This document shows, in pieces, positions 6,740-35,219 of a DNA stretch of 64,000 nucleotides (positions within the stretch are counted from its first letter, which is position 1; each line of letters begins with the position of its first letter). Both the position numbers and the translations under genes were made by a program. This stretch comes from Candidatus Magasanikiibacteriota bacterium (lineage in GTDB: Bacteria > Patescibacteriota > Patescibacteriia > Magasanikbacterales > UBA922), in contig CAILTG010000021.1 of assembly GCA_903837125.1 (NCBI GenBank), positions 11,627 to 75,626 of the forward strand, given 5' to 3'. Below the pieces are notes generated by a model. That model was not told the DNA's origin. It did no database searches and worked only from the letters and a program-made list of their open reading frames with translations.

Positions 6740-7936
6740 TTATCTTAATGTTCTTTCATGATTTGGCTCAACTTCTTTAGCTTGTTTTTCTAATATTTTT
6801 GACTCTCTAATTATTTCCCCTTTACTTTCACCACGTAAATTATGTTTAAGTAACTCTTTTATTTCCAAAGGATCACGTGTTCTGCTTAACACGTAATATA
6901 ATTTCATCAAGGCTTGTCTAAACCTCATCATTGATTCCGGTTTACACCATTCCGAACTAGGTGCATCTTTACGACGATTATAAAATACTACGGCATTATC
7001 TGAACGATTATCCTCTATTAATTTAAACAACTCACTTTCTCTTTCCACGTCTCTGTCAAAAATTAAAATTACATCTGCGTATCTCACAATATCTGCGGAT
7101 AACGGAGTTGCTATTCCGATCGGTAAAATTTTCAACCCTTCTTCCAATTTATGAAAATTTAAACTAGGCTCACCACTTGACAATAAACTTTTTTCATCTA
7201 AGATAATTTCACACTCTAATTTAAAATCAGTACTTAAACCATATTCTTCCACACTACTTTCATCTTCTCCGTGCCTAATTCTGCCAATTACTTCCTGTTG
7301 CTCTGGCTCATAAAAAGCATCTCGTTGCTGTGCATTATATTTGTGTGAATTATTTCCACGAATAATTCTTCCATAAAAACACAACACCACTTCTGGGATC
7401 AATGGAACTTCAAATCCTGAACGCCCAGCAAGATGTACTGCATCTACTAAATTTCTTGGTCCGTCAGACCCTTTTTTATCATTAACTTTTTCAATTCTAT
7501 AATTTTTTATTTCACCAGCGTTTTTTTCTCTTTCTCTATCAATAGCCGGATCCATTGAACCAGTAAACACCACTGGTTTATTTAAACCATCTAACATATA
7601 AGAAAGAGAACCTGCTGCATCCTCCATAGTATCTGTTCCATAAACTACTACAAAACCATCATATTTTTCGTAATTTTCTTTAATCCTTTGCCCCACCATA
7701 TTAAATGTCTCTAGACGAGCTTGAGAAGAATCAATAAAAACTTCCTTACCAGTGTTTTCATCTTTAGATTTTAATTCCTGCCATTCAATATCATAAGGCA
7801 ATTGGTCTACTTCTGGAATATTTTTTCTTAAATTCTCTAAAGAATCAGGTGTTAAACCACCACCATCTTTTCTCTTCATACCAATAGTTCCACCAGTATA
7901 AATAATCAAAATTTTTCTTGCTGAGGGCTCTTTCAT
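6740..7936 (-). CDS. L-asparaginase family protein (type I asparaginase / GatD-like)
   Basis: N-terminal ILIIYTGGTIGM (asparaginase threonine motif) and VVVYGTDTMEDAA (second signature). 398 aa, with a C-terminal extension. Confidence 0.7.
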   Translation of the reverse strand: MKEPSARKILIIYTGGTIGMKRKDGGGLTPDSLENLRKNIPEVDQLPYDIEWQELKSKDENTGKEVFIDSSQARLETFNMVGQRIKENYEKYDGFVVVYGTDTMEDAAGSLSYMLDGLNKPVVFTGSMDPAIDREREKNAGEIKNYRIEKVNDKKGSDGPRNLVDAVHLAGRSGFEVPLIPEVVLCFYGRIIRGNNSHKYNAQQRDAFYEPEQQEVIGRIRHGEDESSVEEYGLSTDFKLECEIILDEKSLLSSGEPSLNFHKLEEGLKILPIGIATPLSADIVRYADVILIFDRDVERESELFKLIEDNRSDNAVVFYNRRKDAPSSEWCKPESMMRFRQALMKLYYVLSRTRDPLEIKELLKHNLRGESKGEIIRESKILEKQAKEVEPNHERTLR

Positions 7937-9072
7937 ACTTTCTGAGTTAAATATATTTTTAGTGTTTTTTTAATAAAATCTTCTCCTGAATACCTTTTCA
8001 ATTCTTCTTTCGCCTTTTCTCGCAACTCCAGTCTAATATTTTCATCAGTCAAACCAGTATGTATAACTTCCGCCATTTGTTGATAATTTTCCGGATCAAA
8101 ATATAATGCCCCTTCACCTAATACTTCTGGTAAACAACTGGCATCAGATGATACCACTGGCACACCATACGTCATTGCTTCAAGCGGCGGCAAACCAAAA
8201 CCTTCATAAAGTGACGGAAAAACGTAAAGTGAAGCGTTTTGATATAGATTGGCGAGTTCTTCATCTGAAACAAAGTCAGTAAAAACTAAATTGTGATCTT
8301 TCAATCTTTCAATCTTTAAATCTTTAAATAATTTCTCATAAAAGAAATTATTCTTTCCCACCAACACTAACTGATAATCCTCACCATACTTCTCACCAAA
8401 TATTTTCCACGCCCTTAACAATCCTTCCAAATTCTTATGAGGATATGCATTACCTACATAAAGAACATACGGCTTGTTAATTTGAAATTTGAAATTTGAA
8501 ATTTGAAATTTATTTGTATCTTGATTATTGATTATTTTTGTAAACGGTGCTTGATAAATAACCACCATTTTCTCCAACGGCACTCCCAAAGTTTGATGCA
8601 CATCCTGTTTAGTAAATTCACTCGTTACAATAATCTGTTTGGCCTTTTTTACCGCATGACGTAACACTAAACGATGAACCAAATCTTTAAACCAATAAAC
8701 AAATCGTCCGTGCGTACTCGCCTCTTGGCGAGGATAATGATACATTATTAAATCATGAATGGTAACCACGAATGGTTTATTATAAAACAATGGTACATTC
8801 CAATGTGGAAAATGCATTAAATCTACTTGCTCTTTTTCAATTATCTTCTTAAATTTAAACTGCTCTTGCCAACTATACCATGATATATTTGCTTCAATAA
8901 TCTTAAAGCTGTTCGGTAATTCTGCACTCTCCAATTCTTTTGCATTTCTTACAAAAATAAAGTATTCACTCTCTTTGTCTATTTCAGCCAAACCCAAAAC
9001 CAACTCCTGAACATACCTGCCCAAGCCTGCCTGTTTTGGTCCATACATCCGCGCATCTATACCAATTTTCAT
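7933..9072 (-). CDS. Glycosyltransferase family 4 (GT-B, 'group 1')
   Basis: C-terminal EGFGLPPLEAMTYGVPVVSSDASCLPEVLGEG motif. Overlaps the upstream gene by 4 nt. Contains an in-frame (AATTTGA)x4.7 repeat encoding KFQISNFKFQI. Confidence 0.85.
   Translation of the reverse strand: MKIGIDARMYGPKQAGLGRYVQELVLGLAEIDKESEYFIFVRNAKELESAELPNSFKIIEANISWYSWQEQFKFKKIIEKEQVDLMHFPHWNVPLFYNKPFVVTIHDLIMYHYPRQEASTHGRFVYWFKDLVHRLVLRHAVKKAKQIIVTSEFTKQDVHQTLGVPLEKMVVIYQAPFTKIINNQDTNKFQISNFKFQINKPYVLYVGNAYPHKNLEGLLRAWKIFGEKYGEDYQLVLVGKNNFFYEKLFKDLKIERLKDHNLVFTDFVSDEELANLYQNASLYVFPSLYEGFGLPPLEAMTYGVPVVSSDASCLPEVLGEGALYFDPENYQQMAEVIHTGLTDENIRLELREKAKEELKRYSGEDFIKKTLKIYLTQKV
8469..8503. repeat. Heptanucleotide tandem repeat (AATTTGA)x4 plus a degenerate unit, in frame inside the GT4 CDS
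   Basis: aatttga aatttga aatttga aatttga aatttat, read directly. Near-identical arrays occur at 27652-27688 (inside argS) and 60077-60104 (intergenic). Confidence 0.9.
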
Positions 9073-10163: not shown

Positions 10164-11432
10164 CTATACGCCTGAGTTAATAATTTTTATAAATTCCACT
10201 GCCAATTTCTCACACCCAAACTCCTCTATTCTCTTCTTTCCTCTCTCAACTAACACACCTCGCAACTTCTCATCTGACAATATTTTTTTAATTGCTTCGG
10301 CCAGTTCATCAACATTGTGTGGATTAATTAAATATCCAGCCTCACCAACCACTTCTGGTAATGATGAACGACTGGAAGTAATAACTGGTACACCACTGAC
10401 CATCGCCTCTAAAACTGGCAAACCAAAACCTTCATACAAACTTATAAAAACAAACAAACTACTCAACTTATACAAAGTTGGTTTATCTCTTTCGTCAACA
10501 TAACCAATATATCTAACACCTGATGTTTCTTTTATCAACTGCATTAATTTTTTATTCTTCCAACCTTTACCACCAGCAATTACAAGTTCATATTTCTGAG
10601 TTCTGAGTTCTGAGTTACAAAAAGCTTCTATTATTGTTTGAACATTTTTTCTAGGTTCAAGGGTTCCTAAATACAAAATGTACTTTTCTGGTAGACCATA
10701 CCTTTGTTTTACTTGATTTCTACTATCTGAGTTCTGAGTCATGATAAAAGGCAGCCCAGGCCTCAACACTTGCAATTTGCTTTCTGCTATCTGATATCTG
10801 TCTATCACATCGCGTTTAGTATTCTCCGATGGCGTAATTATTACATTCGCTCGCTGACATTGACGTTGCGGATTTAAAAACTTGTGCCACAATCTTTGTT
10901 TCCAAGTAAAACAATCCGGCAAAAATTCAAAAGACAAGTCATGAATGGTTTGAATGTGTCTAACATTTTTTGATAAATTTATAAAACTTAAATTTGGCGA
11001 AAACCAGGTATCAATTCCTCTGTCATTGCGAGGAAACCGATTCGCATCGGCTGACGAAGCAATCTCAGGCAACCTGTAATCTTTAGATAACGACGACGTG
11101 AGATTGCTTCGTCGTCGCGCGAGCTCCTCCTCGCAATGACATAATTTATCTAGTTTAATTATTCTAAGCCAAACTAACAAATTGAGTAATTTATTCGGCC
11201 ATCTAGTATACACATAATGCACATTTTCTTGCTTCCACTGCGGAATATTTTTTGAAACATCAGCCCAAGAATTATAAAACAAAAAATATTGGTTCGCATC
11301 AAGGCAATTATTCAGCTGTTTAAATCTGTCTAAATCAATGCCAAAAATAGTATTAAGCATTCCAAAAGTATACTCCCCAACGCCAGTACGATTTTTATCC
11401 ATTAAACAACGGATATCAACCCCAATATTCAT
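10164..11432 (-). CDS. Glycosyltransferase family 4 carrying in-frame repeat and palindromic-element insertions
   Basis: EGFGLPVLEAMVSGVPVITSSRSSLPEVVGEAGY motif. Contains (TCTGAGT)x3 at 10595-10615 and x2 at 10726-10739. Also contains the 121-bp GC-rich palindromic element at 11021-11141, translated in frame. Confidence 0.8.
   Translation of the reverse strand: MNIGVDIRCLMDKNRTGVGEYTFGMLNTIFGIDLDRFKQLNNCLDANQYFLFYNSWADVSKNIPQWKQENVHYVYTRWPNKLLNLLVWLRIIKLDKLCHCEEELARRRSNLTSSLSKDYRLPEIASSADANRFPRNDRGIDTWFSPNLSFINLSKNVRHIQTIHDLSFEFLPDCFTWKQRLWHKFLNPQRQCQRANVIITPSENTKRDVIDRYQIAESKLQVLRPGLPFIMTQNSDSRNQVKQRYGLPEKYILYLGTLEPRKNVQTIIEAFCNSELRTQKYELVIAGGKGWKNKKLMQLIKETSGVRYIGYVDERDKPTLYKLSSLFVFISLYEGFGLPVLEAMVSGVPVITSSRSSLPEVVGEAGYLINPHNVDELAEAIKKILSDEKLRGVLVERGKKRIEEFGCEKLAVEFIKIINSGV
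10595..10615. repeat. Heptanucleotide tandem repeat (TCTGAGT)x3 in frame in the GT4 CDS; a second copy (x2) lies at 10726-10739.
   Basis: tctgagttctgagttctgagt, read directly. Encodes NSELRTQ on the minus strand. Confidence 0.9.
11021..11141. repeat. GC-rich nested palindromic element (RPE-like) inserted in frame in the GT4 gene
   Basis: Outer 14-bp inverted repeat tgtcattgcgagga (11021-11034) / tcctcgcaatgaca (11128-11141). Inner 15-bp inverted repeat gacgaagcaatctca (11053-11067) / tgagattgcttcgtc (11098-11112). Locally GC-rich in an AT-rich gene. Translated as ...CHCEEELARRRSNLTSSLSKDYRLPEIASSADANRFPRNDRG... Confidence 0.8.
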
Positions 11433-14167: not shown

Positions 14168-14600
14168 TCTTATCTATTGTAGATGATCGCCTGCCGATGA
14201 GGCAGGAGGAAAGTCCGAACTCTATCCATTAATTTGGAAATGGTAGTGGGTAACACCCACCAGCACTTTAGAGATAAAGTGTTCGGGATAGCGCCACAGA
14301 GACAATACTACCCCGCAAAATGCGGGGGAAAGGTGAAAAGTGTATGGGGGTTTTGGTTCTAGATCAAAGCTACTATACTCCTCTAATAGTAATATTGGAG
14401 TGCGGCAAGCCCTACCTGGAGAAAGAGCAGCGCCCCGCAGTTTGCGGGGCGAAAAGTTAGCTCGTTAGAATCTATTGGCAACAATAGATCTAGATAAATG
14501 ATCGTCGCCCACAAATCACAACACCAATCGACACTAATTAGTGAAGATTAGTGAAAATAATAGTGGACACAAAATTCGGCTTATAACAATAGGTGAGACA
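14168..14600 (+). ncRNA. rnpB: RNase P RNA (bacterial type A), with a ~55-nt insertion containing ATTAGTG repeats near the 3' end
   Basis: P3 hairpin CCTGCC-GATGA-GGCAGG. CR-I GAGGAAAGTCCGAAC. P8/9 GGTAGTGGGTAACACCCACC. J11/12 CGCCACAGAGACAAT. P12 CCCCGCAAAATGCGGGGG. GGTGAAAAG. P18 ATCTATTG-GCAA-CAATAGAT followed by CTAGATAAATGA. CR-V ACAAAATTCGGCTTATAAC, whose TTCGGCTT pairs with AAGTCCGAA to form P4. P1/P2 5' tcttatctattgt pairs with 3' acaataggtgaga. Followed by an A/T hairpin terminator. Confidence 0.85.
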
Positions 14601-17726: not shown

Positions 17727-17809
17727 GTGGGCGAGAAGGGACTCGAACCCTTATGCCTTTCGGCGTTACCACCTCAAGGTAGTGCGTCTACCAATTTCGC
17801 CACTCGCCC
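17727..17809 (-). tRNA. tRNA-Leu (anticodon GAG) with a long variable arm
   Basis: Reverse complement GGGCGAGTGGCGAAATTGGTAGACGCACTACCTTGAGGTGGTAACGCCGAAAGGCATAAGGGTTCGAGTCCCTTCTCGCCCA. Acceptor and T arms pair. Anticodon loop TTGAGGT with G37. Leu-type D arm. Confidence 0.85.
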
Positions 17810-17832: not shown

Positions 17833-18594
17833 TTAGAACTTTCGTTCTTTCCCTACCACCATCTCAATCTTTTTCTTAGCTAAGTGAATTTTTATTTTAG
17901 TTTCTTTTGACTCTTTACCATCGGCCTCTACTACAAATGGAGTACGACTAAAAACAATCATTTCTTCAAAGGGAAAAATACTCGGATCTTCATATTTCTG
18001 TCGACCAAAAATACCTCTCTTTACCACTGGCCTTAAAAAAGCCTCTAATTTTCCATCTTGTGGATGTACCACTACATCTTCTTTATCTCCCTTCCAAATA
18101 TAAGGCTGCAGATTACAAATTACCAATTCCATTTTTTTACTTTGCGATGACACTTTAAATTTTTCATCATATTCTACGGCAATGTCACTTGGTGGTATAT
18201 GCAATTGAGAGACAAAATAACGATTATTAAACCAGCCCACGTCCAATTTAACTTTACGTCGGCGTGACAAAACATTACAAGCCTCTTCACCAATAGGTAT
18301 ACCCAGTACTTCCGCAATAGTATTATCTCCACCCACAGGCAAAAAACCAAAAGTTATCCCACAGGTAGCAGCACTAGAAAGTACCTGTCCAAAAGTAGCA
18401 TCATTACCCACAATCACAATAGTAGAAGCGCCTTTTTTTATTTCATCTTCTATTACTGCTTTAGAGTTGGTAAAATTTTGCAACCGAACTATCTTACCAG
18501 CAATGCTAAAATCCGTCAACCTAGTCTCAATAGCCCTGAGTGTTGAATCAAATTTCTTATTCTTTAAAAAATTGTCGTAAAGATAAACGTACAT
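17833..18594 (-). CDS. Lipid kinase / diacylglycerol kinase catalytic-domain protein (YegS/BmrU/DAGK_cat family)
   Basis: VIVGNDATFGQV...FGFLPVGGDNTIAEVLGIP matches DAGK_cat motifs. The ORF track begins at a TTG (18600); the ATG is at 18594. Confidence 0.55.
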   Translation of the reverse strand: MYVYLYDNFLKNKKFDSTLRAIETRLTDFSIAGKIVRLQNFTNSKAVIEDEIKKGASTIVIVGNDATFGQVLSSAATCGITFGFLPVGGDNTIAEVLGIPIGEEACNVLSRRRKVKLDVGWFNNRYFVSQLHIPPSDIAVEYDEKFKVSSQSKKMELVICNLQPYIWKGDKEDVVVHPQDGKLEAFLRPVVKRGIFGRQKYEDPSIFPFEEMIVFSRTPFVVEADGKESKETKIKIHLAKKKIEMVVGKERKF

Positions 18595-18602
18595 AAACAA
18601 AC

Positions 18603-18682
18603 AAAAAAGATCAGAAGATCAGAAGATCGAAAGATCATTAAAATGCTTGATCTTATGATCTTCTGATCTTTTGATCTTTACA
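18603..18682. repeat. Palindromic array of 8-mer repeats (AAGATCAG x4, then mirror-image TGATCTTN x4) carrying 8 GATC sites; probable large terminator hairpin after the bactofilin gene.
   Basis: aagatcagaagatcagaagatcgaaagatcattaaaatgcttgatcttatgatcttctgatcttttgatcttt. The loop contains the TTAAAATGCTT motif. On the minus strand the stem is followed by a T-rich tract. Confidence 0.8.
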
Positions 18683-18685
18683 ATA

Positions 18686-19153
18686 CTATTGGAGCACTGC
18701 AACATTCTCTTCTTCTCCTTTAACTTTTAACCTACCAAATCCACCTAATTTTTCTTTCTTTTCTGGTTCAATACCTTTCATCAACACCTTGCCATAAATT
18801 AATGCTCCTGGTTCTACTGCCAAAACCTTACAATCAATATCTCCAGCTACTCGAGCGGTAGAAGTTAGTTCCAACTTATCACTAATCTTAACATCACCGC
18901 GCACTTCTCCAGAAATAACCGCTTCTCCGGCTCTAACGTTAGCAAAAATTTTAGCCCCTTTTTCCACAGTCAATCTTTTACTGGTTTTCACGCTTCCTGA
19001 AACTGTCCCCTTCACCACTATATTACCCTCTGATGAAAAATCCCCCTCCACACTTACTGAAGGGCCAACCACTGTCTCCACCTCGTCTTGCGCCTGGTGT
19101 AACTTGTCTTCGTTGTTATTTAAAGAAATGCTGGGCGATGGTTTTTGAAACAT
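18686..19153 (-). CDS. Bactofilin (polymer-forming cytoskeletal protein, DUF583)
   Basis: Repetitive beta-helical G.V.G.V pattern: VSVEGDFSSEGNIVVKGTVSGSVKTSKRLTVEKGAKIFANVRAGEAVISGEVRGDVKISDKLELTSTARVAGDIDCKVLAV. Confidence 0.75.
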   Translation of the reverse strand: MFQKPSPSISLNNNEDKLHQAQDEVETVVGPSVSVEGDFSSEGNIVVKGTVSGSVKTSKRLTVEKGAKIFANVRAGEAVISGEVRGDVKISDKLELTSTARVAGDIDCKVLAVEPGALIYGKVLMKGIEPEKKEKLGGFGRLKVKGEEENVAVLQ

Positions 19154-27381: not shown

Positions 27382-29070
27382 CTACATTTCTTCAACTGTT
27401 TCTATACCCAACAAATCTAACCCTTTTTCCATAGTTTCTTTAACCTTTTTTATTAATTGAAAACGAAAATTAAGAACAGTTTCCTCCGCCCCCAAAACTG
27501 GACAGGTTTGATAAAAATTATTAAAAGCTTGCGCTAAATCAAACAAATATCTAGCAATCTGTGAAGGGTCCTCGGAGTCTGTGGCTATTTTAATTGTCTC
27601 TTCAAACTTTAATAATTCTAACAAAAGTTTCTTTTCTACCGGCTCAACTGAATTTGAAATTTGAAATTTGAAATTTGAAATTTTTGATTTTTTCAATATG
27701 CTGTTGATGCGAGCTACAATATAAAGCAAATAAGGCCCACTACTACCCGTTAAAGAAATAGCTTCATTTACATCAAACACAATGTCATTTTCAGTGCCAG
27801 TTTTTAAAATAAAATATTTAACCGCGGCCACAGCTATTTTAGCAATTACTTTATCCTTATCTTTTATTTTACGAGCCAACATTACTTCGGCAATCTTTTT
27901 TTCAGCTTCGTCAAGCAGCCACTCAGCCAAAACTACATTTCCCGTACGCGAACTCATTTTACCTTCTTTTAAACTCACCCAACCATAAACCAAATGTTCC
28001 TCCCTACCTTTGCTTTCAGGCAGAGTGAATTCCAAGGCTTTAAAAATAACTTTAAAATATTCAGTCTGTTCTTTGGCCACGACATGTAAAATTCTAGCTG
28101 GATTATATTCTTTAAATTGCATTCGAGCCAAGGCCTGGTCTTTGGCTTCATAAGTTGGCAAGCCTTTGCTGTTGATAAACACTCGGTCGTGCAGACCATA
28201 TTTACTTCCTTCAAAAATGACCGCTCCTTCGCTTTTCTTAAAAATTCCACTCTTTATACCTTCTATAACAATTTTTTTACCTAATTCAAAAGTTTCTGAT
28301 TCAAAATACAAACGATCAAACTTTTTAATGCCTACTCTTTTATAAATATAATCAAAATAATCCAAACTCCATTTTCTGGTTTTTTTATACAACCCAACCA
28401 AAGATTTATCTTTACTATAAATCTTGGCATTCAAAGCTTCAATTTCTTTTTTTACCTGCTCGCTACTCTCAAAAGCTTTACCCCCATTAGCATACACCAC
28501 CCCCAAAAATTTTGCTCGTTCACTGGTGGTTTTTAATTTTGAAATTTCTGTCTGATAATTTGGAACCTGTAAAATTCCCCACAAACACTTGGCAATATGC
28601 ATACCCACATCTCCCTGATAATTTGCACGCACTACCCTATGACCTTGATTTTCAAACAATCTCACCATGCTCTCGCCAGTAGTCATGGTGCGTAAATGTC
28701 CAATATGCACCGGCTTGTGAGTATTAGGATGAGCAAACTCCACCATGATCTTTTCCTTTTTTTTGATTATTTTTTGTTTTTTTTCTGATAAAACAATTTT
28801 TGCTAATTCTTGTGCGTTCAAATAAAAATTTGCATACGGCCCGATTGCTTCAATTTTTTCTATCAATCCACCAGTTTCCAAGTTTTTTAATTTCTCAACA
28901 ATTTCTCTGGCACAATCCAGCGGACTTTTCTTCCATTCTTTTGCTAAACCAAAACAGGCAAATGCCAAATCACCCATTTCTGGATTTGGTGGAATCGTAA
29001 AATTTACCAGACCAGTAACTCCTGCTTTTTTTAATAATCTTTCTATTTCAATTTTTATTTGTTCCAACAT
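27382..29070 (-). CDS. argS: Arginyl-tRNA synthetase
   Basis: Class I HIGH motif AHPNTHKPVHIGHLR and a C-terminal DALR anticodon-binding domain. Contains the in-frame (AATTTGA)x4+ repeat at 27652-27688, encoding KISNFKFQISN in the linker before the DALR domain. Confidence 0.9.
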   Translation of the reverse strand: MLEQIKIEIERLLKKAGVTGLVNFTIPPNPEMGDLAFACFGLAKEWKKSPLDCAREIVEKLKNLETGGLIEKIEAIGPYANFYLNAQELAKIVLSEKKQKIIKKKEKIMVEFAHPNTHKPVHIGHLRTMTTGESMVRLFENQGHRVVRANYQGDVGMHIAKCLWGILQVPNYQTEISKLKTTSERAKFLGVVYANGGKAFESSEQVKKEIEALNAKIYSKDKSLVGLYKKTRKWSLDYFDYIYKRVGIKKFDRLYFESETFELGKKIVIEGIKSGIFKKSEGAVIFEGSKYGLHDRVFINSKGLPTYEAKDQALARMQFKEYNPARILHVVAKEQTEYFKVIFKALEFTLPESKGREEHLVYGWVSLKEGKMSSRTGNVVLAEWLLDEAEKKIAEVMLARKIKDKDKVIAKIAVAAVKYFILKTGTENDIVFDVNEAISLTGSSGPYLLYIVARINSILKKSKISNFKFQISNSVEPVEKKLLLELLKFEETIKIATDSEDPSQIARYLFDLAQAFNNFYQTCPVLGAEETVLNFRFQLIKKVKETMEKGLDLLGIETVEEM

Positions 29071-32268: not shown

Positions 32269-34980
32269 CTAATAAAAAATATTAAGCTGTTGCTTCAGTT
32301 TTTCCAATTTTTCTTTGGCCTCAACTAATTTTTTCTTTTCTGCCTCCACTACCTGTACAGGCGCATTATTTACAAATTCTTTATTGCTTAATTTTTTCTC
32401 TAAACCAATAGCATACGGTTCAACACTAGTTATTTCTTTTTGTAATCTAACCTTTTCTGCTTCCGCATCTACAGCACCTGCCAAATCCACAAAAACTTCC
32501 ACACCGCTAACCACAAAACCCACACTTGTTTCAGGCTTCTTAATTTTAGTCTTAATCTCAATCTTTTCTAATCTCGCCAATCCTTTTATTATTTCGACAT
32601 TATCTTTTAACAATTCAACATTTTCTCCAGCACTAATAGTTGCATTTAGTTTTTTCACTGGTTCAATTTTATTTTCAGCCCGAAGTGAACGAAGGCCAGT
32701 GATAATATTTTTTATTAGTTCAAATTCTTCATTTATTTTAATCTCAATCTTAGTCTTAATCTCAATCATAGGCCATTTTTCAACCATCAACATTCTTTCG
32801 TTTCCATAAATTTCACTCCAAATCTGTTCTGTTACAAATGGCATAAAAGGATGCCACAACTTCAACAAAGCATTTAAAATATAATTCAAAATTTCGGATT
32901 TACCACCCTCTATTTTGGCAACTTCTAAATACCAATCTGCCAAATCACTCCAAGTAAAATCACGAAGTGCCTCACCAGCTTGTGAAAAATTAAACTTTTC
33001 AATATTATCAGTAACTTGTTTTGTAACATTCAGCAACCGATTCAAAATCCATTTATCTGCAAGAGTTTCCAATTCTGGAATTTTAACATCAATTTTTGAT
33101 TCCGGAATATTCAGCAACATAAAACGAGAAATATTCCACAATTTATTTACAAAATTTCTGGCACTATCAATTTTTTCATCATAAAACTTAGAATCATTCC
33201 CTGGGCTAATCCCAAGTAAAACGCTAATGCGCAAAGCATCTGCTCCATATTCTTCAATTACCTCAAGTGGATCAATATTATTCCCAGCTGATTTAGAAAA
33301 CTTTTTTCCTTCTTCATTTCGGAGCATTCCATGGATATACACATCTTTAAATGGTATTTGATCTAAAGCGTAAGTTGACATTAAAATCATTCTGGCCATC
33401 CAAAAAAAGACAATTTCATAACCCATTTGCATCCAACTTGTTGGGTGAAACTGTTCTAGATCATTTTTGAACTCGGGTTTACCCGCCACAATCTCGCCAG
33501 AGCCGGGCTTGCCCGGCGTAGCCCTAGCGAAGCCGGGCCAGCCTAAAGTAGAAAACGTCCAAGTACCAGAAGAAAACCAAGTATCCAGAGTATCAGCATC
33601 TTGCAACCATCCCTCACCTGTTGGTTCTTCAATACCACAATAAATTTCTTCACCTTTATACCAAACCGGAATCCGATGACCCCACCAAATTTGGCGACTG
33701 ATACACCAATCGCGCAAATTTTCAATCCAACCAAAATATATTTTTTCAAAACGTTCAGGCGTAATATTAACTTTTTGATCTGAAATACCATTATGTCCCA
33801 AAGTCACAGCTTCTTTCATTAATTCTTTAAGACTTTTTTCCTTTCCTGAAACTTTTTTATTTACGTCAATAAACCACTGCGTCATTGGCAAGGCTTCTAC
33901 AATATCACCAAACCTATCTGAAGTACCAACATTCTGAAGAATGTCTTCTTCTTTTTCTAATAAATCATTTTCTCTTAACCATCTGGACACCTCTTCCCTA
34001 GCTTTTTCAGCTAAAAGACCTTGATAAAGATTCGATGCTTTATCAGTCATTTTGCCGTTCTTGTCAATTACTTCAATTAAATTTATTGGATCGTTTTTCG
34101 CTTTTTGATTTAAATACATTTCAAAGTCAACCATACTGTGTGCTGGAGTTACACCAACAGCACCTGTACCAAATTCCGTAACTACTTTTTCATCGGCAAT
34201 AATTTTAATTTCTAAATTAGGGCCGCCTGCAAATTTTTCAATATTAAAAACTTTTCCAATGTACTTTTTGTACCTTTTATCATGCGGATTTACTGCTACA
34301 GCGGTATCTCCTAATTTTGTTTCCGGTCGCGTGGTAGCAATAGTAATTGGAAAATCTTTAGAATATTTAAAATAGTATAACTTTGATGGACGTTCAACAT
34401 GAACTAACTCATCATCAGAACAAGTAGATTGGCCTTTTACTGACCAATTTACAACTCGATGCCCGTGATATATCAATCCATCATCATACATTTTTTTAAA
34501 AACAGTTTTTACTGCTAAATTCCTTTGCTCATCAAAGGTATAAGCCAAACGACTCCAATCACAACTAGTGCCTAACTTCTTTATTTGTCTTAAAATTGTG
34601 GCTTTTGAATTTTCTGCATATTCTCTAATTAACTCTAAAAGTTTTTCACGCCCATAAAATTCACGAGGTTTTTCAATTCCCTTTTTTACCAGTTCTTTTT
34701 CAACTTTAGCTTGCGTAGCAACTGCCGCGTGATCTGTACCTGGTAATAACAATACTTTTTTGCCATTCATTCTCTGATAACGCGCCATGGTATCCATTAA
34801 ACTATTTTCCATTGCATGACCTAAATGCAAAACACCAGTCACATTTGGTGGCGGCATCATAATAGAATATGGTTCACCAGTAAGATTATCTGGATTAAAA
34901 AAACCACTTGTCTCCCAACGCTCATAAATTGCATCTTCGTATTTTTGTGGTTCGTAAGCTTTTGGCAATTCTTTACTCAT
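32269..34980 (-). CDS. valS: Valyl-tRNA synthetase
   Basis: PPPNVTGVLHLGHAMENSLMD (HIGH), KFSKSAGN (KMSKS), editing domain, C-terminal coiled coil. The likely start is MSKELPKAYEP at 34980; the ORF track extends to 35016. Carries the in-frame GC-rich insert at 33478-33545 and heptamer-repeat segments encoding IEIKTKIEIK. Confidence 0.92.
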   Translation of the reverse strand: MSKELPKAYEPQKYEDAIYERWETSGFFNPDNLTGEPYSIMMPPPNVTGVLHLGHAMENSLMDTMARYQRMNGKKVLLLPGTDHAAVATQAKVEKELVKKGIEKPREFYGREKLLELIREYAENSKATILRQIKKLGTSCDWSRLAYTFDEQRNLAVKTVFKKMYDDGLIYHGHRVVNWSVKGQSTCSDDELVHVERPSKLYYFKYSKDFPITIATTRPETKLGDTAVAVNPHDKRYKKYIGKVFNIEKFAGGPNLEIKIIADEKVVTEFGTGAVGVTPAHSMVDFEMYLNQKAKNDPINLIEVIDKNGKMTDKASNLYQGLLAEKAREEVSRWLRENDLLEKEEDILQNVGTSDRFGDIVEALPMTQWFIDVNKKVSGKEKSLKELMKEAVTLGHNGISDQKVNITPERFEKIYFGWIENLRDWCISRQIWWGHRIPVWYKGEEIYCGIEEPTGEGWLQDADTLDTWFSSGTWTFSTLGWPGFARATPGKPGSGEIVAGKPEFKNDLEQFHPTSWMQMGYEIVFFWMARMILMSTYALDQIPFKDVYIHGMLRNEEGKKFSKSAGNNIDPLEVIEEYGADALRISVLLGISPGNDSKFYDEKIDSARNFVNKLWNISRFMLLNIPESKIDVKIPELETLADKWILNRLLNVTKQVTDNIEKFNFSQAGEALRDFTWSDLADWYLEVAKIEGGKSEILNYILNALLKLWHPFMPFVTEQIWSEIYGNERMLMVEKWPMIEIKTKIEIKINEEFELIKNIITGLRSLRAENKIEPVKKLNATISAGENVELLKDNVEIIKGLARLEKIEIKTKIKKPETSVGFVVSGVEVFVDLAGAVDAEAEKVRLQKEITSVEPYAIGLEKKLSNKEFVNNAPVQVVEAEKKKLVEAKEKLEKLKQQLNIFY
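32740..32767. repeat. Heptamer-periodic repeat (AATCTCA / ATCTTAG / TCTTAAT ...) in frame in valS. Related arrays occur at 32547-32575, 40611-40640 and 41561-41586.
   Basis: aatctcaatcttagtcttaatctcaatc encodes IEIKTKIEIK on the minus strand. The same gtcttagtcttaat motif lies just 3' of yidC and at the nusA 3' end. Confidence 0.8.
33478..33545. repeat. GC-rich palindrome-containing in-frame insertion in valS
   Basis: acccgccacaatctcgccagagccgggcttgcccggcgtagccctagcgaagccgggccagcc, with inverted repeat gccgggc tt gcccggc. Encodes GFARATPGKPGSGEIVAGKPEF, inserted between the conserved TLGWP and FHPTS blocks of ValS. Confidence 0.7.
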
Positions 34981-35219
34981 AAAATATATAACATGAAACA
35001 GGTAACAAATTGTCATGTGCTACAGGTTATCTGCTATAGGTTACCTGGTATAGATTACCTCAATAATCCAAATTAATCAAGTAATTATCTAAACATAGCA
35101 GAAAAGTCTTTATAAAATGTCACTCTTATCAAAACTTCTTTTAATGGCTTAAACAAGCCAAAATTAATGACCGGTCAAAATCTTCTAAATTAAGCCAAAA
35201 AATGCCCACAGCCCAGAGT

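What the first reader, a model, noticed from the sequence alone, without database searches (positions are those of the whole stretch)
10595..10739. Second heptamer family (TCTGAGT)n, present twice in frame in a GT4 glycosyltransferase
(TCTGAGT)x3 at 10595-10615 and x2 at 10726-10739 lie in the same GT4 gene that also hosts the GC-rich palindromic element. A surface-glycan glycosyltransferase that accumulates several slippage-prone and insertion elements fits diversifying or phase-variable surface structures.
Basis: seen in the sequence. Interest (0 to 1): 0.5.

Follow-up and report, generated by a model that had tools for sequence, protein, structure and literature searches.

The report
Old heptamer repeats inside a glycosyltransferase gene
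The 7-base repeats are real, but they are not inserts or a demonstrated on/off switch: they are the locally re-homogenised remains of old 7-base tandem arrays in tolerant loops of a sugar-transferase gene of an uncultured Magasanikbacteria (CPR) bacterium, an ordinary kind of bacterial simple-sequence repeat.

Summary
Observation confirmed. (TCTGAGT)x3.3 lies at 10594-10616 and x2 at 10726-10739, inside a 422-aa GT4 glycosyltransferase gene (10164..11432, minus strand). There it is read as (ACTCAGA)n, giving NSELRTQK and TQNSD.

Neither tract is an insertion: against 30 orthologs the loops have the usual length. In DNA of seven orthologs (56-67% protein identity in the alignment), the same places carry 7-nt periodicity in the same register and length, each lineage with its own unit. 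One ortholog has an exact octamer array there. The query's exact repeat uses rare codons (P about 2e-5 given the peptide), so it arose at the DNA level.

Best reading: old heptanucleotide arrays in tolerant loops, kept semi-homogeneous by replication slippage or conversion. They are part of a local and bacteria-wide excess of 7-nt repeats.

The same kind of array sits in the essential arginyl-tRNA synthetase gene of this window. The tract is short, lies mid-gene, and has been length-stable across species. A phase-variation switch is therefore unsupported, though ±1 unit would truncate the enzyme. No strain-level data exist to test it. This is a new member of a known kind, of low to moderate interest.

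The parts
10164..11432 (-). Host gene: GT4 (GT-B fold) glycosyltransferase, 422 aa, in a Bac_transf-GT4-GT4-GT4 glycan cluster that is syntenic in orthologs.
   Evidence: ORF. Pfam PF00534 1.9e-38. Orthologs in Candidatus Magasanikbacteria. Synteny. AF2 model pLDDT 87.
10594..10616 (-). Site 1, perfect array. On the coding strand it reads (AACTCAG)x3.3 and encodes N273-K280 (NSELRTQK).
   Evidence: In the model it forms the helix C-cap and turn before strand 282-286, with pLDDT about 93.
10584..10618 (-). Site 1, full old 5-unit array: GTAACTC AGAACTC AGAACTC AGAAATA TGAACTT. It is in the same 7-nt register as nGAAyTn x5 in orthologs P0002, P0005, P0009 and P0025.
   Evidence: Register alignment. 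Lag-7 self-match is 0.75 against a gene mean of about 0.30; the value is 0.5-0.89 in 7 of 8 orthologs.
10726..10739 (-). Site 2, two perfect units (ACTCAGA)x2, encoding TQNSD in the interdomain linker.
   Evidence: Linker block has pLDDT 78.
10713..10740 (-). Site 2, full old 4-unit array: GACTCAG AACTCAG ATAGTAG AAATCAA. It is in register with (ACTACAG)x4.4 of P0002, (ACTATGG)x4.7 of P0005 and GACACAG AATACAG ATAACAG AATGCAG of P0046.
10767..10806 (-). Site 3, degenerate heptamer array: ACAGATA TCAGATA GCAGAAA GCAAATT GCAAGTG, giving peptide RYQIAESKLQV. It is in register with (CAGATAC)x2.9 of P0002 and the exact (AAATTTC)x4.9 of P0006.
   Evidence: TRF 10778-10806, period 7, 81%. Register alignment. 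Ortholog arrays.
11021..11141 (.). GC-rich nested palindrome of 121 nt inside the same gene. It is a true insertion relative to many orthologs and encodes a disordered segment. It is not part of the heptamer arrays.
   Evidence: Inverted repeats I1 and I2. Alignment columns about 128-210. pLDDT below 50 at aa 115-136.
8479..8511 (-). Sister phenomenon: exact (AAATTTC)4AAATT, 33 nt, in the neighbouring GT4 gene 7933..9072 (peptide KFQISNFKFQI).
27651..27683 (-). Sister phenomenon: the identical 33-nt (AAATTTC)4AAATT array in arginyl-tRNA synthetase (27382..29070). It is read in another frame and causes no net length change against E. coli ArgS.

Best explanation
The two TCTGAGT tracts are heptanucleotide simple-sequence repeats that belong to old tandem arrays built into tolerant parts of this GT4 family. 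These parts are a helix-cap/turn before a beta-strand, the interdomain linker, and a third site just upstream of the linker.

Shown:
- The arrays add no residues relative to orthologs.
- Most of the seven orthologs compared at DNA level carry 7-nt periodicity at the same places, in the same register and with the same length. Each lineage has a different dominant unit.
- The query's perfect run is written with rare codons.

Inferred:
- The arrays predate the divergence of these Magasanikbacteria.
- They are kept partly homogeneous by replication slippage or intra-array conversion (concerted evolution). In this lineage the unit AGAACTC spread over three adjacent positions of site 1 and two positions of site 2.
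- Only frame-preserving outcomes survive: conversion, ±3 units, or paired +1/-1 events. That is why the length stays constant.
- The arrays are by-products of the general bacterial tendency to form 7-nt repeats, tolerated because they sit in loops. They are not a dedicated switch.
For: - No insertion at either site in a 31-sequence alignment. The family consensus at site 1 is xSxLxxxxYxLIIAG.
- Codon-aligned ortholog DNA for site 1: query AACTCAG x3, P0009 AACTAAG AACTAGG, P0025 AACTACG AACTCTG AACTTTG.
- Register alignments of sites 1, 2 and 3 in 8 genes.
- Lag-7 self-match at site 1 is 0.50-0.89 in 7 of 8 genes against about 0.3 gene-wide, and 0.1-0.35 at lags 5, 6, 8 and 9.
- Lineage-specific perfect units at the same loop: (AATATCC)x4.7 in P0004, (TGAATTA)x5.1 in P0005, (CACACTTA)x4.0 in P0046, and (GTCAAAT)x~4 in L127.
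- Codon usage: CTC is 1.5% of Leu codons and AAC 11% of Asn. P(these codons | NSELRTQ) = 2e-5.
- Window-wide excess of period-7 and period-8 exact arrays: 3 against 0.08, and 2 against 0.02.
- The same kind of array lies in essential ArgS without length change.
- (ACTCAGA)x4.4 lies in a PHP/EndoQ-like gene of another Magasanikbacteria genome.
- Period 7 dominates all other periods in 0.88 Mb from many phyla: 201 arrays against 1-7 for periods 5, 6, 8, 9 (23 at period 4).
- Literature: heptanucleotide repeats are the most abundant long SSR in most bacterial genomes, and polymerase slippage has been proposed as the cause (Mrazek et al. 2007, as summarised in PMC4679880 and PMC4692102).
- The sites are a turn and a linker in the AF2 model.
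Against: - Slippage by single units would frameshift the gene. How units were homogenised without length change is inferred, not shown.
- Part of the shared periodicity could reflect protein-level conservation (L, Y and L at site 1; YQIADSKIQVL at site 3) rather than array ancestry.
- P0006 and P0009 are only weakly periodic at site 1 (ranks 0.07 and 0.11).
- Only 8 orthologous DNAs were compared.
- The recurrence of the same unit at two sites 110 nt apart is not explained by purely local slippage. Nor is the pair of identical 33-nt (AAATTTC) arrays with the same end phase in two unrelated genes.
- Three of the four perfect coding arrays in the window lie in GT4 genes. This could indicate selection rather than tolerance.
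Confidence: 0.62

Rival explanations
1. Phase-variable contingency locus. Gain or loss of one 7-nt unit by slippage switches the glycosyltransferase off and on, varying a surface glycan of this episymbiotic CPR bacterium.
For: - The unit length is not a multiple of 3.
- ±1 unit at site 1 gives stops at aa 281 or 283 of 422. ±1 unit at site 2 gives a stop at aa 238. Both remove the EX7E half of the enzyme.
- The gene lies in a glycan cluster.
- Perfect arrays are concentrated in two GT4 genes.
- Unit homogenisation implies that slippage or conversion has acted here.
- Heptanucleotide repeats drive known phase variation, for example H. influenzae HMW1A (PMC8262952, found) and Neisseria pglE (own knowledge).
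Against: - There are only 3.3 and 2 units. Known heptamer switches carry many more (own knowledge).
- The tract starts at nt 817 of 1269, not near the 5' end where phase-variable SSRs concentrate (PMC3315296).
- Array length is identical across orthologs, and the arrays are allowed to decay (site 2; P0009, P0025).
- The same type of array lies in essential ArgS and in an EndoQ-like gene.
- None of 126 (ACTCAGA)n arrays in other genomes gave a convincing frameshifted gene. The 3 candidates were adjacent genes or GC-rich pseudo-ORFs.
- No out-of-frame homologue appeared in the protein search.
Confidence: 0.12
2. Dispersed, actively spreading micro-repeat family, like cyanobacterial STRR/SDR elements. 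Arrays of a given heptamer are copied to new loci, by an unknown insertion or ectopic-conversion process, as roughly 33-nt in-frame blocks that overwrite loops.
For: - The same unit occurs at two sites of this gene and in an unrelated gene of another Magasanikbacteria genome.
- The identical (AAATTTC)4AAATT, with the same length and end phase, lies in GT4 number 1 and in ArgS. The corresponding ISNFKFQI peptides occur at other sites in P0005 and P0006.
- ELGIKNYEL, from (GAATTAn)n, occurs at site 1 in P0005 but at a different site in P0046.
- Many arrays are 31-34 nt.
- (TCTGAGT)3 was found in at least 120 loci of many phyla, often at several loci per genome, against about 0.3 expected for a random 21-mer.
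Against: - The arrays share no flanks, target duplications or ends beyond the repeat itself.
- The heptamer sites of this gene show no net insertion.
- Register conservation across orthologs points to in-situ evolution.
- In viral contigs a same-composition control heptamer is as frequent: (CAATCAG)3 at 7 loci against (TCTGAGT)3 at 5.
- AT-rich units such as AAATTTC are expected to recur independently in a 34% GC genome.
Confidence: 0.18
3. Coincidence of protein conservation and codon usage. The peptide (S)ELRT is conserved, and its codons GAA-CTN-AGA-ACT automatically look like a 7-nt repeat.
For: ELRT is shared by P0009 and P0025. GAA, AGA and ACT are the preferred codons.
Against: - The exact 23-nt run needs the rare codons CTC (1.5%) and AAC (11%), plus TCA and CAG. 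The joint probability is 2e-5.
- The 14-mer recurs 110 nt away against 0.01 expected.
- Other lineages have perfect arrays of other units at the same loop.
Confidence: 0.05

Closest known systems
Long simple-sequence repeats with 7-nt units in bacterial genomes (Mrazek, Guo and Shah 2007, as summarised in PMC4679880 and PMC4692102)
   Same: Exact tandem heptamers far above chance. Period 7 is the dominant long-SSR class, both in the window and in 0.88 Mb of other bacteria. Slippage is the presumed origin.
   Different: Units whose length is not a multiple of 3 are reported to be disfavoured inside genes. Here the arrays sit inside conserved genes, keep their length, and persist in register across species.
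Cyanobacterial STRR heptanucleotide arrays (Calothrix/Nostoc; Mazel et al. 1990, cited in PMC4692102) and GGGGA(T/C)T or GGGAATC repeats of Nostoc and Xanthomonas (PMC4692102)
   Same: Families of tandem heptamers, several units per genome, sometimes as inverted pairs (compare the octamer pair at 18607-18679). (TCTGAGT)3 itself occurs in Nostoc, Anabaena, Microcoleus and other cyanobacteria.
   Different: Those repeats are mainly intergenic and under-represented in coding regions, G-rich, and often have many units. Here the arrays are coding, AT-rich, have 2-5 units, and lie in a CPR bacterium.
TAACTGA direct repeats of marine Beggiatoaceae, cyanobacteria and Bacteroidetes (PMC4679880)
   Same: One orientation carries stop codons in every frame, so inside genes only the other orientation is possible. 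TCTGAGT contains TGA in all frames, and all in-ORF arrays read ACTCAGA. The phylogenetic distribution is patchy and spans many phyla.
   Different: TAACTGA repeats are concentrated just upstream of start codons, with 169 sets in one genome. Here there are two short tracts in the middle of a gene.
SSR-mediated phase variation of glycosyltransferase and adhesin genes (Neisseria pglE heptanucleotide repeats, own knowledge; H. influenzae HMW1A 7-bp repeats, PMC8262952)
   Same: A 7-nt unit in or near a surface-structure gene. One-unit changes would switch expression.
   Different: Known switches have long, strain-variable tracts, usually 5'-proximal or in promoters. Here the tract has 3.3 units, lies mid-gene and is length-stable across species, and no polymorphism data exist.
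Cryptic simplicity and concerted evolution of tandem arrays in coding DNA (Tautz, Trick and Dover 1986; own knowledge)
   Same: Loops of proteins built from short DNA motifs that are repeatedly homogenised by slippage, with lineage-specific units.
   Different: It has been described mainly for eukaryotic genes and for units that are multiples of 3. Here the units are 7-8 nt, in a reduced bacterial genome.

Membership tests
Bacterial heptanucleotide simple-sequence repeat | Head-to-tail exact copies of a 7-nt unit, at least 3 copies, beyond chance | tested here: met
   3.3 exact copies at 10594-10616. The 14-mer is expected 0.01 times per window. Arrays of at least 2.5 copies with period 7: 3 observed against 0.08 expected.
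Bacterial heptanucleotide simple-sequence repeat | Period 7 preferred over neighbouring periods in the same genome or context | tested here: met
   Window counts. Ortholog genes have 12 arrays of period 7, 1 of period 8 and none of periods 5, 6, 9 or 10. Loci from other phyla have 201 arrays of period 7 against 2, 7, 7 and 1.
Phase-variable contingency locus (SSR switch) | Repeat unit not a multiple of 3 inside an ORF, or a repeat in a promoter, so that unit changes toggle expression | tested here: met
   ±1 unit gives truncation at aa 281/283 (site 1) or 238 (site 2) of 422.
Phase-variable contingency locus (SSR switch) | Tract long enough for high-frequency slippage, usually near the 5' end | tested here: not met
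   3.3 and 2 units, at nt 817 and 694 of 1269. N-terminal bias of phase-variable SSRs is described in PMC3315296.
Phase-variable contingency locus (SSR switch) | Copy-number polymorphism, including out-of-frame alleles, among strains or within a population | not testable with these tools
   The self protein is a singleton cluster on one contig. The nearest homologue is 61% identical. The metagenome scan found nothing above 49%. Across species the array length is constant.
Cyanobacterial STRR family | Many dispersed, mostly intergenic arrays of a few canonical heptamers (CCCCAGT, TTGGTCA, CAACAGT; own knowledge) in heterocystous cyanobacteria | tested here: not met
   The unit is ACTCAGA. Both tracts are coding. 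The host is Magasanikbacteria. There are only two sites in 64 kb.
In-frame insertion element (as Rickettsia palindromic elements or the GC-rich palindrome of this gene) | Extra residues relative to orthologs, with definable insert boundaries | tested here: not met
   No gap opposite either heptamer tract in alignment A1. By contrast, the palindrome at 11021-11141 is an insertion.
GT4 (GT-B) glycosyltransferase (host gene) | Glyco_transf_4 N-domain plus Glycos_transf_1 C-domain with the EX7E region | tested here: met
   Pfam hits. Invariant E334...E342 block YEGFGLPVLEA. Confident two-Rossmann-domain model, pTM 0.85.

The most novel reading that the evidence does not exclude
In Magasanikbacteria, and perhaps CPR bacteria generally, loops of conserved proteins are repeatedly overwritten by 7-8-nt tandem arrays of about 33 nt and by GC-rich hairpins. 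This includes essential proteins such as ArgS.

Identical arrays recur at unrelated loci and in different species. Old arrays have even been fixed as conserved peptide segments (YQIADSKIQVL, xELxxxxYEL).

That pattern would point to an active, family-specific process of array spread and homogenisation as a major source of protein-loop evolution in these reduced genomes. Transient frameshifted (OFF) alleles could be intermediates in non-essential glycan genes.
Probability: 0.2. Interest if true: 0.6.

Novelty: new member of a known kind. Interest (0 to 1): 0.3.

Why it matters
As it stands, this corrects a tempting annotation. A short heptamer repeat in a surface-glycan gene is not by itself evidence of phase variation.

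The comparative result is of modest evolutionary interest. Three segments of a conserved enzyme in CPR bacteria are old 7-nt arrays that evolve in concert and in register across species. This shows how non-triplet repeats can persist inside genes and supply loop sequence.

If the broader reading were confirmed genome-wide, it would describe an unrecognised mode of protein-loop turnover in CPR genomes. It would also give a concrete test for contingency switching in uncultured episymbionts.

Tried and rejected
- **Insertion hypothesis.** I aligned 30 orthologs expecting a 21-nt (7-aa) insert. None was found at either tract.
- **Population variation.** The protein is a singleton. An exact look-up of its contig failed. 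Copy-number polymorphism could therefore not be assessed.
Controls in viral contigs gave 5 loci against 7 and 0 for same-composition heptamers. That shows no sign of special status, but the numbers are small.
- **Frameshifted genes at (ACTCAGA)n arrays elsewhere.** The 3 candidates turned out to be adjacent genes (a sigma factor followed by a four-helix-bundle protein in L054) or spurious ORFs in GC-rich DNA.
- **Known RNA families.** Rfam finds nothing in the gene.
- **Literature.** No paper in the library links CPR bacteria, tandem repeats and phase variation.
- **Pure protein-level explanation.** Rejected on codon usage.
Full report
**Observation**

The window reads tctgagt three times in a row at 10595-10615. 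Tandem Repeats Finder extends this to 10594-10616, 3.3 exact copies. A further tctgagttctgagt lies at 10726-10739. The 14-mer is expected 0.01 times in dinucleotide shuffles of the window, and no shuffle reached the observed three overlapping matches.

A two-copy heptamer of arbitrary sequence is not unusual in this 34% GC DNA: 10 observed against 7.8 expected. Exact period-7 arrays of at least 2.5 copies are unusual (3 against 0.08), and so are period-8 arrays (2 against 0.02). The second tract is significant only because it repeats the unit of the first.

**Host gene and organism**

Both tracts lie in the minus-strand ORF 10164..11432 (422 aa). This ORF is a GT4/GT-B glycosyltransferase (Pfam Glycos_transf_1 1.9e-38). 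It sits in a cluster of a Bac_transf initiating transferase and three GT4 genes, and the cluster is syntenic in orthologs.

The best database hits are Candidatus Magasanikbacteria (Patescibacteria/CPR). The protein itself is a singleton, and the next relative is only 61% identical.

On the coding strand the repeat is (ACTCAGA)n, giving NSELRTQK (aa 273-280) and TQNSD (aa 232-236). The plus-strand unit TCTGAGT contains TGA in every frame once it is repeated. This orientation is therefore the only one possible inside a gene. All arrays of this unit that lie in long ORFs of other genomes have the same orientation.

**Not an insertion**

In an alignment with 30 orthologs (48-67% identity in the alignment), neither tract is opposite a gap.

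- Site 1 occupies a loop whose length is the family mode (consensus xSxLxxxxYxLIIAG). Orthologs P0009 and P0025 even read SELRTREYEL and FELRTLNFEL.
- At site 2 the query reads MTQNSDSRNQV, and P0046 reads MTQNTDNRMQV.
- By contrast, the GC-rich palindrome is a genuine insertion. It spans 11021-11141 (121 nt, with 14-nt outer and 15-nt inner perfect inverted repeats). It lies at a position where many orthologs carry other inserts. It is predicted to be disordered, with pLDDT below 50 at aa 115-136.

**Ortholog DNA**

I fetched the genes for P0002, P0004, P0005, P0006, P0009, P0025 and P0046.

Site 1, written in 7-nt register from the conserved beta-strand that follows the loop:

| Gene | Units |
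|---|---|
| query | GTAACTC AGAACTC AGAACTC AGAAATA TGAACTT |
| P0005 | TGAATTA TGAATTA GGAATTA AGAATTA TGAATTA |
| P0002 | TGAATTA TGAATCA GGAATTA GGAATTA TGGTTTA |
| P0009 | GTTTTTC TGAACTA AGAACTA GGGAATA TGAACTT |
| P0025 | AAAATTT TGAACTA CGAACTC TGAACTT TGAATTA |
| P0004 | TCCAATA x4 (exact 33-nt array) |

- The lag-7 self-match of this 35-nt block is 0.50-0.89 in seven of eight genes. The gene-wide value is about 0.30, and other lags give 0.1-0.35.
- The eighth gene, P0046, has an exact octamer array (CACACTTA)x4.0 at the same loop.
- A metagenomic ortholog, L127, has (GTCAAAT)x~4 there. Others carry GC-rich hairpins.

Sites 2 and 3 behave the same way.

- Site 2: query GACTCAG AACTCAG ATAGTAG AAATCAA; P0002 (ACTACAG)x4.4; P0005 (ACTATGG)x4.7; P0046 GACACAG AATACAG ATAACAG AATGCAG. 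All are in one register.
- Site 3 (window 10767-10806; TRF 81% period 7): (nCAGATA)n in most orthologs, and exact (AAATTTC)x4.9 in P0006. It encodes the conserved peptide YQIADSKIQVL.

Three segments of this enzyme are therefore old heptamer arrays. They are conserved in place, phase and length, but each lineage has its own dominant unit.

**DNA-level origin**

The query's perfect run uses CTC (1.5% of Leu codons in the window's genes), AAC (11% of Asn), TCA and CAG. The probability of these codons given the peptide is 2e-5.

Synonymous sites should be saturated at this level of protein divergence (own inference), so a perfect 23-nt run cannot be simple retention. Different perfect units in different lineages at the same register are the signature of concerted evolution of a tandem array, by slippage or intra-array conversion. 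How this happens without a lasting frameshift is inferred, not shown. The options are conversion, ±3 units, or paired +1/-1 events.

**Context in the window and beyond**

- The neighbouring GT4 (7933..9072) carries an exact 33-nt (AAATTTC)4AAATT array and an octamer array.
- The identical 33-nt array, read in another frame, lies in arginyl-tRNA synthetase (27382..29070). It aligns with a loop of E. coli ArgS without extra length. Heptamer arrays in this genome are therefore not restricted to genes for which on/off switching is conceivable.
- A Magasanikbacteria genome (UBA11710) has (ACTCAGA)x4.4 inside a PHP/EndoQ-like ORF.
- Around those loci, period 7 outnumbers every other period: 201 arrays against 2, 7, 7 and 1 for periods 5, 6, 8 and 9.
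- Of those arrays, 58 of 126 look intergenic and only 20 are internal to intact ORFs.
- Same-composition control heptamers are about as frequent in viral contigs. I therefore see no evidence that this particular unit is special.
- This matches the literature. Heptanucleotide repeats are the most abundant long SSR class in most bacterial genomes, and polymerase slippage has been proposed as the cause (Mrazek et al. 2007, as summarised in PMC4679880 and PMC4692102).

**Phase variation**

In favour:

- One unit more or less truncates the protein at aa 281/283 (site 1) or 238 (site 2), which removes the catalytic C-terminal half.
- The gene belongs to a glycan cluster.
- Three of the four perfect coding arrays of the window lie in two GT4 genes.
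- Heptamer switches are known elsewhere (PMC8262952; Neisseria pglE, own knowledge).

Against:

- The tract has only 3.3 units.
- It lies two thirds of the way into the gene, whereas phase-variable SSRs are biased to the N-terminus (PMC3315296).
- Length is constant across species, and units are allowed to decay (site 2; P0009, P0025).
- The same arrays occur in essential genes.
- The three frameshift candidates among 126 arrays elsewhere proved to be adjacent genes or spurious ORFs.

No strain-level data exist for this lineage. The hypothesis is therefore unsupported rather than disproved, and I give it about 0.12.

**Structure**

An AlphaFold2 model (pLDDT 87, pTM 0.85) gives the following placements.

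- Site 1 lies at the C-cap of helix 261-274 and a short turn before strand 282-286.
- Site 2 lies in the interdomain linker. This is the least confident ordered block, with pLDDT 78.

Both are places where sequence variation is usually tolerated (inference).

**Comparison and verdict**

The feature is a member of the known class of bacterial heptanucleotide SSRs.

- It resembles cyanobacterial STRR and Beggiatoa TAACTGA repeats in unit length and in the orientation constraint. It fails their defining features of canonical units, intergenic location and high copy number.
- It works, at most potentially, like an SSR switch, but it fails the tract-length and position criteria.
- What is mildly new is the comparative picture. 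Non-triplet arrays are embedded in a conserved enzyme, held in register for a long time, and homogenised independently in each lineage of a CPR group.

Some points remain unexplained. The same unit recurs at two sites of the gene. Two unrelated genes carry identical 33-nt arrays with identical end phase. Array lengths cluster at 31-34 nt. These leave room (about 0.2) for an active dispersal or overwriting process.

Overall: observation confirmed, interpretation partly supported, new member of a known kind, interest 0.3.

Noticed in passing
window 11021-11141: A 121-nt GC-rich nested palindrome (TGTCATTGCGAGGA...TCCTCGCAATGACA, with inner arms GACGAAGCAATCTCA/TGAGATTGCTTCGTC) is read through in frame inside the GT4 gene. 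It forms a disordered insert. Orthologs carry other inserts at the same hot spot, with recurring peptide motifs (HCEE..., ...AQNDE, ...RAQDD). There is a single copy in the window.
   Followed up: partly
window 8479-8511 and 27651-27683: Two identical 33-nt arrays (AAATTTC)4AAATT, with the same length and end phase, lie in two unrelated genes: GT4 number 1 and the essential ArgS. They are read in different frames. The corresponding peptide ISNFKFQI also occurs at other positions in orthologs P0005 and P0006.
   Followed up: partly
window 18607-18637 and 18647-18679: Two octamer arrays, (AAGATCAG)x3.9 and (TTGATCTT)x4.1, lie in inverted orientation 9 nt apart in the spacer between ORFs 17833..18600 and 18686..19153. 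Together they make a long hairpin built from tandem repeats, which could be a terminator or regulatory structure.
   Followed up: no
window 8296-8329: An octamer array (ATCTTTAA)x4.2, 96% identity, lies inside GT4 number 1 (peptide KLFKDLKIERLKD). This is another non-triplet array tolerated in frame.
   Followed up: no
L004 3701-3732; L127, L131, L132, L135 (loop after EPRKN): The loop homologous to site 1 is a hot spot in relatives. It holds an exact (CACACTTA)x4.0 in P0046, (GTCAAAT)x~4 in L127, and GC-rich hairpins in L131, L132 and L135 (for example tctcgaaggcgacattccggaatgtcgccttcgaga).
   Followed up: partly
L005-L124 (genome-contig hits): (TCTGAGT)n arrays of 3-18 units occur in many phyla, including Cyanobacteria, Acidobacteriota, Planctomycetota, Chloroflexota, Bacteroidota and CPR. 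Often there are 2-5 loci per genome, and nearby arrays are one-mismatch variants (AACTCGG, ACTCAGC, AACCCAG). Most are intergenic or directly upstream of an ORF in the sense orientation.
   Followed up: partly
L085 1788-1818: Candidatus Magasanikbacteria UBA11710 carries (ACTCAGA)x4.4 in frame in a 463-aa PHP/EndoQ-like ORF (KLRTQNSELRTK). This is the same unit as in the window, in an unrelated housekeeping-type gene.
   Followed up: partly
window 17727-17809: An 82-83-nt tRNA is called by Rfam (51 bits), but ARAGORN could not assign an anticodon to it (reported as '(tg)'). It may have an unusual anticodon loop or an intron.
   Followed up: no
window 14171-14599: A bacterial class A RNase P RNA (173 bits, full length) lies on the plus strand between the glycan cluster and the next genes.
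   Followed up: no
window 35018-35060: A 14-nt unit (TGCTATAGGTTACC)x3.1 lies immediately beyond the low-coordinate... rather, the 35016 boundary of minus-strand ORF 32269..35016. This is another short tandem array at a gene boundary.
   Followed up: no
alignment A1 (P0022 against P0010 and P0005/P0023): P0022 matches the P0010 group in its N-terminal half, including the long insert. From site 3 onward it matches the P0005/P0023 group (LDYGLLTMDNGQ, MNYESGIKNYEL). This suggests recombination within the gene near the heptamer-array region.
   Followed up: no
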